Of a stretch of 64,000 bases of DNA, positions 41,101 through 49,344 are shown one piece after another. Position numbers and translations under genes: made by a program. Below the pieces are notes generated by a model. It was not told where the DNA came from and made no database searches. It saw only the letters and a program-made list of their open reading frames with translations. Positions within the stretch are counted from its first letter, which is position 1. Each line of letters begins with the position of its first letter. The DNA is from Sphyrna mokarran (lineage: Eukaryota): contig JAGIQG010000005.1 in NCBI GenBank assembly GCA_024679065.1, positions 63,116,001 through 63,180,000 on the forward strand, written 5' to 3'.

Positions 41101-41749
41101 TGCCATTCTTATCTCTATATTTCTGGCTAAAGCATCTCCAGCCATAGCATCCCTTTCTACAACCAGCTCCATTGTGTGCTACCCCTTGGCACATGATCCC
41201 CGAATACTGGGACCGTTTTCCACGTGTATACTGATACTCGCTCCACTGCCCTGCTATCTTACTTACTCTTTCACAGCCTTTGTGCTGCTGGTCTGTTAGT
41301 CTGAAATCCAGTTTTAAATAAGCTGTAGCTAAAAACAAAAAGCCAAAAGTCATTAATTTTGACTTCTGCAATAGACTTGGTTATGTTCACAACTGCCTTC
41401 TGTGACCATTTCCTCAGAGTGAACTAAACTGCTTGCACCCTACCGATTTGATCAAGGTGGCAAAACATGTTAGGAACATTTGCTGGGGGCTTCCCTCTAG
41501 TTCCATGTGTTGAGCCGAACACAGCTAATAGAAAGACTCGTGAAAGACAATATGAAGTTAAAGATGTTCTATATTTGACCAATATGCATTAGGAGAGTGA
41601 TAGTTAGAGATTCCAACTTCTCGCTCACATTGCAATACCTGTGTAAATCAGATGTATCTTTTCGAAGTTTCGTTTTTCCTGCCCAATCTATCATCCAACC
41701 AGATGATCAATTAGATTAGCACACATTATTTACCTTAGCCAGTAGCAGT

Positions 41750-42875
41750 TTACCTTCTCTACCAAACACCTAGCCAGCTTGTGAACCAACCACCTGGAGT
41801 AAATAGTTTGGGTTGCTTAAATTTCTCCATATCTTTTTTTAATGGGAGTAACCAGATTAGTAATGTTTTATGAACTATCTGGTGTGTGTGTGCAGCACTC
41901 TGATTCAATCACTGTCCATCCCTTTTCTGCCAAGACATAATCCAACACCAATCAATGTTAAAGCATCACTATACACATGGCAATCATCTAGTCATTTACC
42001 TTAGTAAGAGCAGTGGCTATATAATTAGCAACTTGTTCCAAAATAGGGTGTATAAGTATTGTTTCTTAAATCAACTTGGCTATCCCATATCATGAAAACA
42101 TTGTGAGAAGAACTGTTCTGACTCTGAAATTGCTTGTCAATATCTTGGTAAGGGAGGGATATAAAGAATGATAGTTGAATGGGATTATATATCCAAGGTA
42201 ACATGGTCCCTTCCATTCAACAGGGAGCCAAGGATATGCTGTACCCCTGCAAATCCAATATGTACTATTGTGAGTTGGATAAGTGTTGCCTTCGCCAAAG
42301 TAATGAGACATGTTACAAGACTGGTCATTACTGGGGTGGGAGGGTGAGGGGCTCGGGTATATCAGGTTGGTTTGGTTTGCTGTGTATTTACATTCACTTT
42401 CACTTAAGTTTTTGCCAGAGCCTTCCATGTTCCTTACACAATATGTTCTTTCTGACTGTGGATTTGGCTGTTAAAATTAAACTAGGAGCTCATTTTCTTA
42501 GGTTACAGATAGGTAAGCACTGCTTCATATGGCCTACCCTTTCTAGATTACTGTTTTGAAACTTCTCCCTCATCTCTTTACTATTCAATCTGGTAAATGG
42601 TGTCATTGTGTCCATGATATTTGAAACCCTGACCTGTTTGATCTGCCACTATCAATTCTGACCATTTCAGAGGTGATGGTTATAAAGGTATTTTCCCAGC
42701 ATGGATGGAGATATATGGGCAAACCCAACACTTAAACATTCTAGCATTTGTGTATATCGTACATAAGTATTCATGCACATCTTCCAAGGGTTAAGGATCT
42801 TAAATGCTGGTCCTACTTGAATCAAAGTCTGTGCATTCAATGCTAAAAAAACACAAAAGCATAGGTATTTCTCAT
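41750..42875 (-). pseudogene. env: ERV env (gamma-type SU/TM), disrupted
   Basis: CWVC (CXXC) at 42719-42730; STYWICRGTAYPWLPVEWKGPCYLGYIIP (ORF 42090-42428); ISD remnant L*H*LVLDYVLAEKG and ESECCTH at ~41885-41963; WFTSWLG. No membrane anchor seen. Confidence 0.88.
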
Positions 42876-42957
42876 AACAGCTTTTACAGTTTTCCCCTTT
42901 TTCACAAAATAAAACCCTAACTGTTGGTTAATATCAAGTAAGTTTTAAAAAAATCAA

Positions 42958-43040
42958 TGGCAGGAGTGGGATTTGTACTCATGCCTCCAGAGGAGACTGT
43001 GGCCTTAATGTAGCACCTTAAACCACCCAGCTATCCTGAC
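42958..43040 (-). tRNA. tRNA-Leu(AAG)-like gene, decayed, inside the ERV pol-env spacer
   Basis: 83 nt gtcaggatagctgggtggtttaaggtgctacattAAGgccacagtctcctctggaggcatgagtacaaatcccactcctgcca, colinear with the vertebrate tRNA-Leu(CAG) body including the long variable arm; followed by ttgattttttt. Confidence 0.8.
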
Positions 43041-43059
43041 TGCCAAACAAGGCAAGGCA

Positions 43060-43142
43060 GTCAGGATGGCCCAGCTGTTTAAGGGGCTGTGTTAAGACTG
43101 CAGTGTCCTCTGGAAGCTTGGGTTCAAATCCTATTCCTGGCA
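43060..43142 (+). tRNA. tRNA-Leu(AAG)-like gene, decayed, inside the ERV pol-env spacer
   Basis: 83 nt gtcaggatggcccagctgtttaaggggctgtgttAAGactgcagtgtcctctggaagcttgggttcaaatcctattcctggca; intact B box GGTTCAAATCC; followed by ttg-a-T9 terminator. Confidence 0.82.
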
Positions 43143-43449
43143 TTGATTTTTTTTTAAGTAAGTAAAACTTATTTATAGATTTGCACATCAATCACGTTAC
43201 ACTCTGTTGTTACAATCTCTGCTACACTCTCTGTCTCACACTCTTGACTTGATATCAGCAATGGGAGTTGTCTGTGATGTCTTGTCTGATGTGGGAGCCT
43301 GGGACTTTTCACTGGCAAGTAATATTCTGTAACTATAAACAAAAAATGACTTGTGGTCTTGAAGTTAGCATTTTACAATTTGAATCATTTCAATCTCCTC
43401 TCTTCTAATACCTTCTCGACTGTTCTTATGTCATGATGTGGCCTAATCT

Positions 43450-46400
43450 GTGAGCTTGTCTGCATATCCAAATTGTCCCTATTATCACAAAGGCAATTAG
43501 AAAAGCCAGAATAACCCCATCTTCAGTAGATTATTCATCCACTGGGGCAATTTTATTGTTACTGGATTACTCAATAGGATATGGGGAGGTTTCAGTGAGT
43601 TCAGTATCACCATTTCATCAATCAGGGTACGTGTTTGTCCTGTGACAGTCATGTTATAGGGCCCCTCCGCCAAACCCCAATCTTTGTCTGTCATGAGTTT
43701 CATCATTACCTTATTTCCTGGTGTAGGTAATTTAGGACTATTCTCCCCTGCCAGTTTCATCCAGTCTTTGTGCTGCTGCTGAGTGATTACCTGCTTTTTG
43801 AAAGAATATAAATTATCTACTGAATCCTCAGACATTGAAATACTGCTCTCGGCTAATTTCAAGTTTTCTTCCTCCTTTAATTGTCTCCTCTGGAAGGTGC
43901 ATTGTTCTTCCTGTTACCAATTCAAAAGAGGTTAGTCCTATTCCTCAAGCAGGAGTAGCTCTTTTTCACAGTAATATTGCAGACAAAGCCTATATCCAAT
44001 TGTTTCCCTTATCTAAAATAGCCTGAGTTAAATTATTCTTCCGTTTTTGGTTCATTCGTTCCATCATTCCTGAGCTCCAAGATAATATGGTATATGAAAT
44101 CTTTGTTTTATTCCTAATATTTGACAAACTTCTATAAAGATTCTTCCTGTGAAGTAGGTTCTCTGATTTGAGTCCAATTGAAGCAGTTCCCCATCTAGAT
44201 ATTATCTCATTTGCCAATATCAAAGCTACAGTTTTGGCTGTGGCATCTTTACATAATAATGCTTCAACCCATCCAGTAAACTGATCTATAATTACCAAAC
44301 AATATGTCTTTCCTTACTACCCAAGGTAATTTACAAAAATCCATTTGTAAATTTTCCCAAGCTCCTTTAGGTCGTAACTGATTTCTCATTTTAATCTTGC
44401 AGGGACAACCTGGTTCCATTAGAGTGCACTACTGGCACATTTGACAAAACCTTGCCACATCTCTCCCCATTTCCTTCCACTACCAACATTCCCTTAACAG
44501 ATTCAACATTTTTTCTCTGCATATATGTGCTAATCCATGGTACACTTTCAGCAGTGATTGTTGTATTACTCTTTTTCCTTCCCTTCTTCATACACCATAT
44601 TGACCTTTCTGCCCTTTGCATTTCTCCCACTTCTGCTTCTTCTCTCCTGATGCTTGTTCCTGTAACTACTTTACATCAATGTTTCTATTCTCACTAGTTT
44701 GTACTATTGCTAATCCTGTGGTTTGTTTCCATTCCCATTTTTGTTCTTTCACGACTTTATCAACATAGCTTTTCCCTTTCTGTGCTTGACTTTCAATTTT
44801 ATTATGAGCTTGTACTTTTATTACAGCTGCTTCTAAGGGACTGCAGGTTGCTTGGATTAAATCTTTAATCAAACTTTCATGCTGTACATATCCCCCACAA
44901 GAAATTAAAAAACTTTGTCTGTTCCAAGCTGTCATGTAGTCATGCATTACCCCAAAGGTGTACCTGCTGTCAGTATAGGCATTAACTCGCTTCCCTTTGT
45001 TCCATTCTAAAGCTTTAGTTAAAGCTAATAATTCCACTACCTGTGCTGAATTATTTCTGGGGACATGTTCCTGCAATCACTGTTCTCTCATCATTTACCA
45101 CTGCCCATGTAGTGCAGAGTTCTCCATCAACATATTTTCTTGGTTCTTCTGCTAAATCCTCACTTGCTTCTTCACTCACTTCTGCAACACATTCATGTTC
45201 TGTTCCCCATATTCAGTCCCCCCGTTGGATTTTCCTTGACACCTGTGTTGATTTCTACTTACCTGTCCTCTAGCAAGAGAGTTGCTTCCCGTTTTGAACA
45301 TCTCCCATTGGAAACTCCTTTCAGTCTCCCAGCTTCCAGAAGCTGGACAGTTGTGAGGGAGCTATGGAGGATTATGTTTCCCATCAGGGCAAGTGACTTC
45401 GACACACTTGCCTCCCCACAAGACACATGCTAACACTCTCACGTATCGATGCATACTTTTGGCAGCTGAATCTAATTGGGCAGAGTAATACCTCACTGGT
45501 CTTAAGCTATCCCCATGCTGCTGAGTAAATACAGGGGCTCGGATCCTGTCATCTTCCTGATAGAAAATGCGAAAAGATTTTAGGTCTGGCAATCCCAAGG
45601 CTGAGGCTTTTACCATTGCGTGTTTTAAATCTGAGAAAGCTTGTGCTTTCATCTCTCCCTATTCTACCTTTCCTTTGCTAGCCCTTTATCAAGTCTTGTA
45701 AGGGCTTTGCCAATGCTGCATAACCCTTTACAAAATTTCTACAATAATTGAAAAGTCCCAGTACTTGCTTCATTCATTTTATAGTTTGTGTTCTCTGCAT
45801 ATAAAAACTTGGCTTTCTTTTGATCTGTGGGAATGTCTTTCTTATACTGAGATATGATATGTTCCGAGTAAATTACTTCTTCCTTCTCTAATTGAGCCTT
45901 TTTTGTGTTCAACTTGAGCCCAGCTCTCTGAGTTGCCTGGATGACCCTGCAGTGGGCTAGGCAATACAATACTGAACTGTTGGAGGCTCTCAAAATATCA
46001 TTCACATACTTTCGGATGGCTGTGTGCCTGCGCATTCTAATAGATCAATTATTTGAGCTATATATTTGTGAAATATGGCTGGACTATTGTGAATTCCTGT
46101 GGCGGTTTGGTCCAAGTAAACTGCTGGTTCCTGACTGTGAACACAAATTTATACTGATGTTTCTTCACTGCAGGAATCAACCAAAATCCAGTAACTATGT
46201 CTAGCACTCTGAGTATTATCTGTTCTGACCCAACGTTATTCAGTATACTAGCTGGGTTGGCCATTATGGGATGCTCTTGAGTCATGTAGCAGTTTAAGGT
46301 TGTATAATTGGTCAATCAGTAATGGCCATTTGGTTTCTTAACTGGTCAAATTGGTGACTTAGTTTCAGAGGAAGTTTCAGTCACTATTTGTTGCTTTTCT

Positions 46401-47175
46401 AAGCCTGCAATAATGATTTTAACTGCTTCCATTGCTTCTGGCTTAATAGAATAATGTTTAACAGGGGGATGAGCTCTCCCAGGAATCAAAGAACAAAGAA
46501 AATTACAGCACAGGAACAGATCCTTTGGCCCTCCAAGCCTGCTCTAATCATGCTGCCTGACTGAACTAAAACTCCCTTCCCTTCTGGGGACCATGTCCCT
46601 CTATTCCCATTCTATTCATGTATTTGTGAAAACGCCCCTTAAAAACCGCCGAATCATTACTGGAAGAATGGCCAAATACCTACAATCTTGCTTATACGTA
46701 GCCCAAACCTGGGAGTACTGTAAAGCCAAATTTCCGCACACTCTTCCGTCCTGCCAATTAGTTTGGAGGATTGCCATCTGAGAAATTGTACTTTTTCCCT
46801 TTTGACCCCACCGATTTCACTTGTCAGATCTATGCCACACTATAGTACCTACTTTGGCATCAATTACAATTCCCAATTGTCCTAGCACATCTATTCCCAA
46901 AATACACCCTTATCCTGTTAAATATATCCAAATCTGAACCAATTCCCCCCAACCCCCAATCTCTAATGTACTATGCTCACCTTAATATTGTCATCTTTGT
47001 TCCCCCACTTATTCCTACTAACTGTATAGATTGGTGGGTCGTCCGCAAGGGTAAATGCATTATGGTTATGGTTGTCCCAGTATCTGCTAACATAGTAAAA
47101 TGACAACATCCTAGTTTTGTATTTGCATTTATGTTGGACCTCTCTCTGTAATCTCGAGACTTGTTAATTGTCATT
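43450..47175 (-). pseudogene. pol: ERV pro-pol (protease, RT, RNase H, integrase), disrupted
   Basis: PR MLADTGTTIT; RT LDIVTGFWLIP...YKFVFTVRNQQFTWTKPPQEF and YVND (YVDD); tether KASALGLPD...RPVRYYSAQLD; RNH SAQVVELLALTKAL...NAYTDSRYTFG; IN IIDQFTGWVEA...EIISRWG and GPY. Confidence 0.93.
46489..46650 (-). mobile_element. Short CR1 3'-UTR insertion in ERV pol
   Basis: (ttctttg)n tail and CR1 stem-loop; gaatca TSD at 46483-46488 and 46651-46656. Confidence 0.75.
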
Positions 47176-47179
47176 TCTG

Positions 47180-48636
47180 TCTGAGTAACATCTGTAACTC
47201 ATCTGCAGTCATATGGATTACTGTCTGTGATATTTGCTGTGCTGGTGTGGGTTCTTAGGGTGGAGCCTCAGAGAGCTGCTTCACCAACCTGGGACTATGT
47301 TCTTCCTTCCCTTTCCCTTTCAACCAACAGTCCTTCATGTCATGACCATTCTTCTGACAATTCTGACAATGATTACTCTCCACGCATTTATTTCAACCTT
47401 CTCTCGCAAAATATCCCTTCTTCCCATAGGAAAAGCATACTCTCTTACCTTTAAGCCGTGGCTGTGGGTTATCGATTATTTTTGGATTTTTCCTTATGAT
47501 TAGCTTCTGCTTTCATGGTCCAATTTATAATTTCCTCATATTTATTTCCTACCAGGACACTCGTTTCTATGATTCTAGTCAGGATAGAATTGAATCCTCC
47601 TTTAAGTAGACCTAAAAACCTGTCATTATCTCTGTCAGGGTCGGCTACTCTTCCATCTACTCACCCTAAACTTTCTTTCCCCATATTCTTATGCCGATTC
47701 TTTGGGTTCTTGTTTAACTAAGGTTATCTATGTCCAATTGACACTTCCCCTATCGATTGCCCATCCAATACCTCTTTTAAATTTGTCAGACTTTTGTTGA
47801 TCATTTTGGTCTTCTGCCTATATCCAGCTTCCCCTTTTGTAACTCAGAGTAGAAAATGCTACCCAGCATAAGCTAACATTCCCTTCACTAATAACATCAC
47901 ACATCTGAAGTTAAATTATGAACTTCCTTTAACTCGTTCATGTTTTCCCAAAAGGCTGAATTCTGATGATTTTGATATAACAGTTGTAATTTATTCATAA
48001 ACATCTGCTTTTCTGCCATCATTAGTGGTAATTGTGTAATGACGGTGGGTTCCCTGTATCCATCTTCACAAACTTTTCCTACAGTTTGAATGAGGACCAT
48101 GTTAGCAGACAGGGTTCCTCATGAGGGGAATTGGGATTAATAACACTCTGTACTATTTCTAAATCCAACCCCCTCGTTTATGCCTTCTCCCATGGGGTAA
48201 CTATTGTGGTACCTGATTGCTCCGTCATCATCCTTCCCACAGGGGTATTCATTGCTACTTCCTGTGCTGCCTTTCCAACGGCCATTTGCTTGTATTTTGC
48301 CAGCCTCTGGAGGTGGTTTTTCATCATAGTGGCTAGTGTCTCAGCTGCCATCTCTGCCTTATTTTGAGACTGGCCTTTCCACCATGCTTTTTGCTCCGGC
48401 ACTGGAGTCTCCGGATTATATCTTTTCTTCCATCGTTTTCTTTTGTATTTTTCCATACTCTGTCACTGCCTTGTGTATCAAACTGTTATCAGATCCCCAT
48501 CTTGGATTTTCCAAATCTGGATCGCTCATTGCCATCATGCAGTCCTTCGCCTTACTAGCATTTCCAGTTTCACTCACAAATCTCTCACTGGAGACCTCTC
48601 ATCCTTTTGTTTGAATTCCTCGCTGGAAATTCCAAG
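47180..48636 (-). pseudogene. gag: ERV gag, disrupted, with two CCHC zinc knuckles
   Basis: Intact CQNCQKNGHDMKDC (47327-47368) preceded in frame by degenerate CFSYGKKGYFAREG; lies upstream of the protease. Confidence 0.8.
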
Positions 48637-48799
48637 ATGCATTGGGAGGGAGAAACTGGAACCTCCGGCTGTATCTCTCCCAGTGTTGGTCAAATAAAGA
48701 ACATTTTTAATTTCATACTGTCTTTCTGTCTTTCTCGAGTTTTCATATTAGTTGAATACATGGAACCAGAGAGAAGTCCCTAGAAAACACTCTTACAAA

Positions 48800-49065
48800 G
48801 TGGCACTGTGGTTAGCTCTGCTGTCTCACAGTGCAAGGGACACAAATTCAATTCAATGTGTGGAGATTGCACGTTCTTCTCGTGTCTGCAGACGTTTCCT
48901 CCAATGTTCCAAAGATGTGCAGGTTAAATTGGTCATGCTAAGTTGCCCCTAGCAGGGACTAGCAGGGTAAATATGTGGGGTTAAGGAGATGGAGCCTGGG
49001 TGGGATTGTCGCTGGCCCTTTGGGCCAAATCACCTCTTTCTGCACTGTAAGGACTCTATGATTCT
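48800..49065 (+). mobile_element. HE1 SINE abutting the ERV terminus
   Basis: gtggcactgtggttagc head; ctgcactgtaaggactctatgattct tail; tacaa(a)g on both sides. Confidence 0.85.
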
Positions 49066-49344
49066 ACAAGTATATAACACCTGTCAACAAAGATCACCTA
49101 ATGTTACCTCAGTAACGTCACTGGCTTTCATCACCACCTAAGCAGAGCTCATTTTCCACTGAAATCATTTTGACCTTCCAGACTTACTTAATCCAAAAAT
49201 CTGCTGACTGTCCACCTTTTTTCATCCTGAAAAAACTTGAGCAAAGCTCTGTTGCCAGTACCCATTTCAAGTCCAACCTGTCCATCACCCTACCTTTCTG
49301 AACTTGCCTCTCAGCACTCTTAATGTCTTGCATTTCATTCTCAC

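What the first reader, a model, noticed from the sequence alone, without database searches (positions are those of the whole stretch)
41468..48797. Provirus bounded by inverted, not direct, LTR-like repeats (U5-type ends at both termini)
Seen: 41468-41634 (+) aligns with the reverse complement of 48638-48797, e.g. gaaagacaatatgaagttaaagatgttctatatttgaccaa vs gaaagacagtatgaaattaaaaatgttctttatttgaccaa. The first 44 nt are about 75% identical, similar to the divergence between the two tRNA copies. The element starts TGT and ends ACA. The repeat holds AATAAA (48693-48698) ~100 nt before its terminal CA, like R-U5. It is in sense orientation after env and in antisense orientation directly before gag, where I see no normal 5' LTR, PBS or leader. 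The flanks aaaca / aagta (after removing the SINE) may be a decayed 5-bp TSD. Known: retroviral LTRs are direct repeats; inverted termini are typical of DIRS elements and DNA transposons. Inference: either minus-strand strong-stop DNA (U5'-R') primed plus-strand synthesis at gag, giving an integrable molecule with two U5 att ends, or this is a retroviral lineage with an atypical replication scheme, or it is a post-insertion rearrangement.
Basis: partly seen in the sequence, partly recalled or inferred. Interest (0 to 1): 0.8.

Follow-up and report, generated by a model that had tools for sequence, protein, structure and literature searches.

The report
Ancient provirus with a folded-back end
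This is an old, broken retrovirus copy whose front end is an inverted piece of its own terminal repeat, likely made when the first DNA made by reverse transcription folded back and primed itself, a reaction usually treated as a dead end; the virus family itself has ordinary direct repeats.

Summary
The inverted repeat is real and not an assembly artefact: contigs of two related organisms span the junction. It is not a new replication scheme. The repeat is the 3' part of an abundant ~860-bp LTR, and 22 of 24 family 5' ends with a detectable LTR are direct. The right-hand copy is exactly R-U5, inverted. It starts at a TAR-like hairpin 31 nt behind a TATA-like box, and the 22 nt inside it are a second, sense copy of R: a fold-back. 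A second provirus (L036) has the same fold-back but kept the other arm. The detector flags 2 of 83 R ends, both on proviral 5' ends. Removing the SINE can give a perfect 5-bp duplication, AAACA (family TSD 5 bp; chance about 1.7%). Best reading (0.65): self-primed minus-strand strong-stop DNA became the plus strand, giving DNA with two U5 ends that integrated; one palindrome arm was lost then or later. Against: the two repeats are no closer than random copies, and no empty site was seen.

The parts
41463..41467 (.). Left target-site 5-mer (AAACA)
   Evidence: family TSD is 5 bp
41468..41758 (-). 3' LTR remnant: end of U3, R (inferred start near 41625, hairpin), decayed polyA signal, U5 ending in CA at 41468. 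The 5' ~590 bp of U3 and the PPT are absent.
   Evidence: matches positions 592-876 of solo LTR L018; joined directly to env-side sequence; hairpin z -1.7
41759..42700 (-). Region 3' of pol, env by position only
   Evidence: collinear with the same region of L133, L136, L137; no Pfam hit and no protein hit for the open stretch 42090-42470
42936..43163 (.). Separate insertion: head-to-head pair of decayed tRNA-Leu copies with 3' trailer, flanked by an 8-bp direct repeat (42936-42943, 43156-43163)
   Evidence: absent from copy L124; arms 83-85% like tRNA-Leu(CAG) genes on C982
43990..44313 (-). Integrase fragment
   Evidence: Pfam rve E 0.0015, below the curated cut-off
44666..45076 (-). RNase H fragment
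   Evidence: Pfam RNase_H E 7.5e-12; best PDB hits MLV/XMRV-type RNase H, E 5e-15
45362..46315 (-). RT and connection fragments, in several broken frames
   Evidence: RT_RNaseH_2 E 4e-7; weak hit to Pr125Pol RT, E 5e-4
46487..46644 (.). High-copy short repeat inserted in pol
   Evidence: depth above 1e5 and loose ends at both limits; skipped by family copies
46650..48631 (-). pro/gag remnant and last part of the leader (gag by position and family collinearity)
   Evidence: 64-75% collinear with family copies
48632..48653 (-). Inner fold-back arm: sense copy of the R hairpin's 3' arm and the following ~14 nt, joined to the leader
   Evidence: 19 of 21 to L018 sense R; fits sense better than continued antisense in 45 of 48 copies
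48647..48797 (+). Outer arm: inverted R-U5 with AATAAA (48693-48698), ending in the U5 CA
   Evidence: matches L018 positions 717-876; 717 is the first base of the R hairpin
48798..49068 (+). Right target 5-mer split by a SINE: AA (48798-48799), SINE (48800 to about 49066, lacking its first ~9 nt), ACA (49066-49068)
   Evidence: SINE limits; perfect parse needs one shared base; chance about 1.7%

Best explanation
The element is a defective endogenous retrovirus of a normal direct-LTR family whose 5' LTR is replaced by an inverted R-U5 with a fold-back junction, likely a fossil of self-primed minus-strand strong-stop DNA that was integrated with two U5 ends. Shown: the inverted piece runs from the first base of the R hairpin to the U5 CA; a sense copy of R follows it directly; a second provirus has the same junction. 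Inferred steps: (1) tRNA-primed synthesis made strong-stop DNA; (2) its 3' end paired back on the other hairpin arm and was extended on itself, so the growing end became plus-sense; (3) it switched to a minus strand made from the co-packaged genome, through the PBS as L036 suggests or directly into the leader, and copied gag-pol-env to the 3' LTR; (4) integrase joined both U5 ends, duplicating 5 bp; (5) one arm of the adjacent palindrome was lost: the inner arm here, the outer arm in L036. The copy has no 5' U3 promoter, PBS or PPT, so it would not have replicated further.
For: Outer arm = L018 717-876. 717 is where a hairpin starts (mean -11.2 kcal/mol over 25 copies against -2.4 to -4.9 for windows at -60 to -20 and +10 to +70; z -1.2 to -4.8 in 5 copies). 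A TATA word lies 30-33 nt upstream in 12 of 25 anchored copies. The inner 22 nt match sense R better than continued antisense in 45 of 48 copies, median 16 vs 11 of 22. L036 reads inverted R, then sense R-U5-PBS-leader-gag, with the same turn point. 2 of 83 R ends are fold-backs, both on proviral 5' ends, none in solo LTRs. The outer arm stops at the U5 CA, an end defined only by the tRNA primer and integrase (established retrovirology). Family TSD is 5 bp (18 of 38 copies at least 4/5, 10 of 38 perfect), and AA+ACA matches the left flank. Self-priming at an R hairpin is a known HIV-1 reaction (PMC6088434, passages).
Against: The two repeats are not detectably closer than random copies: 78% against 75.7 +/- 4.1% for 599 random pairs and 75-88% for 7 same-element pairs. 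They are not sisters in a 158-column tree of 80 copies, where the partner ranks 68 and 36 of 79. The TSD needs one of 12 parses and one base shared with the SINE tail. The three bases plus TGG after the right-hand CA also resemble the U5-PBS spacing of 5' LTRs, which would fit an arm that once ran further. L036 has lost its outer U5 next to a common repeat, so its outer end cannot be checked. My ungapped junction test was inconclusive for L036 (19 of 48). Only one fold-back was found without selection. L081 holds an inverted LTR piece that does not end at R, so other routes to inverted pieces exist. Self-primed products were not detected in HIV-1 endogenous reactions.
Confidence: 0.65

Rival explanations
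1. Host-side fold-back after integration: a replication fork or repair end turned round at the same R quasi-palindrome, duplicated R-U5 in inverted orientation, and deletions trimmed the result.
For: A duplication at a hairpin needs only DNA synthesis. All copies are heavily deleted. L081 has an inverted LTR piece beside a SINE. The tRNA pair in this provirus is an inverted duplication with its own 8-bp direct repeat, so likely made in the chromosome. The spacing of TGG after the right CA resembles a PBS start.
Against: It needs a second break exactly at the U5 CA, loss of all 5' U3, and a chance 5-bp match (about 1.7%). Solo LTRs carry the same hairpin and are the majority of copies, yet none of them shows the fold-back.
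Confidence: 0.22
2. A separate, oppositely oriented solo LTR lay upstream, and a deletion removed the real 5' LTR, leader, host DNA and the solo LTR's U3.
For: The LTR is abundant (161 candidates). The two repeats are no closer than random copies.
Against: It does not explain the sense copy of R at the junction, the break at the R start, the same junction in L036, or the matching 5-mer.
Confidence: 0.08
3. A retroviral lineage that replicates with inverted termini, like DIRS or a DNA transposon.
For: Two loci share the fold-back.
Against: 22 of 24 5' ends with a detectable LTR are direct. Solo LTRs have 5-bp TSDs. PBSs exist, three matching tRNA-Ser. No other locus spans this junction among 40 scored of 71 candidates or 40 of 91. 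The two fold-back copies keep opposite arms and are only about 69-70% alike in gag.
Confidence: 0.03
4. Assembly artefact.
For: Inverted repeats can be misassembled.
Against: The arms differ by 22%. Contigs of organisms B and C span the junction at about 90% identity, and X1 spans it with 0 differences.
Confidence: 0.01

Closest known systems
[quoted passage not shown]
   Same: A hairpin at the 5' end of R lets the 3' end of strong-stop DNA fold back and be extended on itself.
   Different: Described in vitro as a dead end and not detected in endogenous reactions. Here the product appears joined to a whole gag-pol-3' region and fixed in a germ line.
Guppy PrERV-1 with an inverted 5' LTR (PMC5210030, passages)
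   Same: A fish ERV whose 5' LTR is inverted.
   Different: The authors left the mechanism open (recombination, unclear). The passages seen do not say whether only R-U5 is inverted or whether there is a fold-back.
HIV-1 proviruses with asymmetric LTRs or aberrant strand transfers (PMC9278108; PMC12657518; passages)
   Same: Defective proviruses made by template switches between co-packaged genomes, including a 3' LTR deletion rescued by the other genome; rare inversions.
   Different: Those keep a direct 5' LTR. PMC12657518 discarded sequences with reverse-complement regions, so U5-U5 forms would not have been counted.
DIRS retroelements and TIR DNA transposons such as Ginger (recalled)
   Same: Inverted termini; TG...CA ends.
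   Different: Here the repeats are LTR R-U5 pieces with a polyA signal, the family has direct LTRs and PBSs, and the enzyme set is RT-RNase H-rve integrase.

Membership tests
Endogenous retrovirus (LTR, integrase type) | RT, RNase H and rve integrase in that order | tested here: met
   integrase hit is below the Pfam cut-off
Endogenous retrovirus (LTR, integrase type) | Direct LTRs (TG...CA) in the family | tested here: met
   22 of 24 5' ends with a detectable LTR are direct; two-LTR copies L061, L123, L130, L133
Endogenous retrovirus (LTR, integrase type) | Direct LTRs in this copy | tested here: not met
   5' end is inverted R-U5 only
Endogenous retrovirus (LTR, integrase type) | tRNA primer-binding site after the 5' LTR | tested here: met
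   In family copies (L002, L032, L040 complementary to tRNA-Ser(AGA) 3' end); absent in this copy
Endogenous retrovirus (LTR, integrase type) | Short fixed TSD | tested here: met
   5 bp in solo LTRs; one parse gives 5 of 5 here
Endogenous retrovirus (LTR, integrase type) | env gene | tested here: inconclusive
   Region collinear in family copies, but no Pfam or protein hit
ERV class (I vs III) | RT phylogeny | tested here: inconclusive
   RNase H best hits MLV/XMRV-type; RT fragment weakly hits Pr125Pol; no tree built
Self-primed strong-stop product | Inverted arm starts at the RNA 5' end (R start) | tested here: met
   Start inferred from TATA offset and hairpin base; no transcript data
Self-primed strong-stop product | Sense copy of R continues from the hairpin's 3' arm | tested here: met
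Self-primed strong-stop product | Outer arm ends at the U5 att and shares one TSD with the other end | tested here: inconclusive
   Ends at CA; TSD split by a SINE; no empty site seen
Self-primed strong-stop product | Both ends derive from one virion (sister sequences) | tested here: inconclusive
   78% lies inside both the true-pair and the random range
DIRS | Tyrosine recombinase, no TSD, inverted termini as a family trait | tested here: not met
   rve integrase, 5-bp TSD, direct LTRs
TIR DNA transposon | Same inverted termini on many copies | tested here: not met
   No second locus spans this junction among those scored

The most novel reading that the evidence does not exclude
Self-primed strong-stop DNA is not a dead end in vivo: it can be rescued as the plus strand and integrated as a provirus with two U5 ends, often enough to have been fixed at least twice in this germ line (2 of 24 proviral 5' ends seen). 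Such proviruses would be overlooked by LTR finders and by provirus sequencing that discards inverted reads.
Probability: 0.45. Interest if true: 0.65.

Novelty: new variant of a known kind. Interest (0 to 1): 0.45.

Why it matters
It would be natural evidence that a side reaction known from the test tube, and said to be suppressed by nucleocapsid, can yield integrated proviruses, and that a U5-U5 DNA is integrable. It predicts a class of defective proviruses that can be sought directly in long-read provirus data and in ERV catalogues, and it offers a mechanism for ERVs reported with unexplained inverted 5' LTRs. It also shows a TAR-like hairpin at the start of R in a very old retrovirus family. 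It is not a new kind of mobile element.

Tried and rejected
Atypical lineage, DIRS or TIR transposon: rejected. Assembly artefact: rejected. Identity, rare shared letters and a tree to show that the two repeats are sisters: no power at this age. Empty site in relatives: none among the 15 joints listed, 705 not shown, and the relatives carry the element. The joint 41536-48725 is likely other LTR copies switching between the two homologous arms, not a junction. Idea that the tRNA pair is a family trait or was captured in the same reverse transcription: the one informative copy (L124) lacks it, no second pair among 40 scored of 98 candidates, and it has its own 8-bp direct repeat; pre-tRNA packaging is known (PMC4997597 passages), so capture is not excluded. 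Idea that loss of PPT/U3 forced the rescue: both fold-back copies have a 3' LTR cut on the U3 side, but so do several direct copies (L061, L123, L040), so it does not discriminate. Search for the lost outer U5 of L036: not above shuffles. Relaxed ARAGORN on loci: noise. Two folds were out of register and were redone. Protein searches for env and pol names: nothing. Rfam: nothing. Earlier findings of the scan: none. Paper searches for a described U5-U5 or fold-back ERV (listings, plus the passages cited) found only the guppy case; most subscription papers are not searched, and Guo 1997 and Driscoll 2000 were not held, so absence from print is not shown. No supplements were read.
Full report
Observation. 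The inverted repeat is real: 41479-41634 matches the reverse complement of 48638-48787 at 71.5% over 158 nt (E 3e-13), with a local score of 129 against at most 37.5 in 200 shuffles. It encloses broken pol fragments on the minus strand: integrase, RNase H and RT pieces. The structure is not an assembly artefact. A contig of organism B spans 47524-48923 (141 other letters, 27 gaps), one of organism C spans 48310-48726, and run X1, which may be the source of this DNA, spans 48430-48940 with no difference. The element is therefore older than the split from these relatives.

The repeat is part of an ordinary LTR. It has at least 161 candidate copies in the genome (40 scored). Full copies are about 850-900 bp, start TG and end CA. 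Of 42 copies with both ends located, 4 were set aside for a TGG right behind them; of the other 38, 18 have at least 4 of 5 matching flank bases and 10 have 5 of 5, while 4- and 6-bp registers match at 26% and 28% per base. The TSD is 5 bp. Copies next to gag carry a PBS; three fit tRNA-Ser(AGA) genes of this genome. I examined 39 loci with gag or leader, the window included: 22 have LTR sequence upstream in direct orientation, 15 have none detectable in the stretch fetched, and 2 have an inverted piece (my tally). The lineage replicates normally.

Anatomy of this copy. The left repeat, 41468-41758, is the 3' LTR in the correct orientation, cut to positions 592-876 of solo copy L018 and joined straight to env-side sequence, so the PPT and most of U3 are gone. 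The right repeat, 48647-48797, equals L018 717-876 in inverted orientation. Position 717 is the base of a stem-loop: 40-nt windows starting there average -11.2 kcal/mol in 25 copies, against -2.4 to -4.9 for windows at -60 to -20 and +10 to +70 (single copies z -1.2 to -4.8). A TATA word lies 30-33 nt upstream in 12 of these 25 copies, 22-23 nt upstream in 3, and is absent in 10. I infer that R starts at this hairpin, as HIV-1 R starts at TAR, and that the right repeat is exactly R-U5.

The junction. The bases inside the inverted arm, 48632-48653, do not continue into U3. They match the sense strand of R from the hairpin's 3' arm onward: 19 of 21 to L018, and better than continued antisense in 45 of 48 copies, with 2 ties. 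The family leader resumes at about 48631-48640, with at most a two-base overlap. Part of R is thus present twice in opposite orientation, which needs DNA synthesis on a folded-back strand, not a simple inversion.

A second case. L036 (G000:C2, near 25,164,500), found through its gag match, reads about 60 bp of inverted R, the same turn point, then sense R-U5-PBS-leader-gag. Its outer U5 is gone, and a common repeat begins about 40 bp further out. A detector run over 83 distinct R 5' ends flags only these two (scores +33 and +18; next +2; median -18). The window was chosen for this feature, so the unbiased count is 1 of 23 other 5' ends. L081 has an inverted LTR piece that crosses the U3/R boundary and lacks the turn.

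The ends. Both termini are U5 ends in CA. A SINE occupies 48800 to about 49066. Keeping the two bases before it and resuming at 49066 gives AAACA, identical to the left flank. Some perfect parse among 12 arises by chance in about 1.7% of random trials. The parse needs one base shared with the SINE tail. The three bases plus TGG after the CA also resemble a U5-PBS junction, which weakens the reading a little.

Mechanism. Shown: the arm limits, the sense copy of R, the second locus, the family's direct LTRs and 5-bp TSD. Inferred: strong-stop DNA folded back at the R hairpin and primed itself, as HIV-1 strong-stop DNA does in vitro without nucleocapsid (PMC6088434, passages). Its growing end was then plus-sense. 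It moved to a minus strand from the co-packaged genome and copied the rest of the provirus, giving DNA with U5 at both ends, which integrase joined. The adjacent palindrome lost one arm, during synthesis or later in the chromosome. I put this at 0.65. A host-side fold-back at the same hairpin (0.22) must also break exactly at the U5 CA and should affect solo LTRs. A separate solo LTR plus deletion (0.08) does not explain the sense copy of R.

Results against. The two repeats are 78% identical (110 of 141), within the range of 7 same-element pairs (75-88%) but also of 599 random pairs (75.7 +/- 4.1%). In a multiple alignment they score 68% and are not sisters in the tree. No empty site was seen among the joints listed. 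How the relatives read letter by letter at the junction remains open. The review cited states that self-primed products were not detected in HIV-1 endogenous reactions.

Comparison and novelty. Aberrant strand transfers, asymmetric LTRs and rare inversions are documented for HIV-1 proviruses (PMC9278108, PMC12657518; passages). An ERV with an inverted 5' LTR of unclear origin is reported in guppy (PMC5210030; passages). Six searches of the held library showed no description of an integrated self-primed product, but older subscription papers are not covered. Verdict: a new structural variant of a defective ERV, of interest as a likely fossil of a reverse-transcription side reaction, not a new element class. 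Interest 0.45.

Noticed in passing
window 42936-43163: Head-to-head pair of decayed tRNA-Leu copies with 3' trailer and T-run, flanked by an 8-bp direct repeat, inserted 3' of pol. Absent from family copy L124, covered by contigs of relatives X2 and X6. Likely a target-primed insertion of precursor tRNA with an inverted duplication.
   Followed up: partly
L036 2247-2424 (G000:C2:25164440-25164620): Second provirus with the same fold-back at the R hairpin, keeping R-U5-PBS-leader.
   Followed up: yes
L081 1800-1950: Solo LTR with an inverted copy of its own U3/R segment inserted in U3 next to a SINE.
   Followed up: partly
L035 506-1147, L036 101-266: Internal inversions of pol segments in two family copies.
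   Followed up: no
L127 649-2160: A leader piece is embedded inside a direct 5' LTR, at about the R hairpin position (LTR 732/752).
   Followed up: no
L032, L040 versus L034, L035, L036: Family copies carry different PBSs: tRNA-Ser-like in some, another in others.
   Followed up: partly
L061, L123, L040, L120, window: 3' LTRs cut on the U3 side are common in this family, as in asymmetric HIV-1 proviruses; the search query may favour this.
   Followed up: partly
G000:C982 8.1-12.9 Mb: Large cluster of tRNA-Leu(CAG)-like genes.
   Followed up: no
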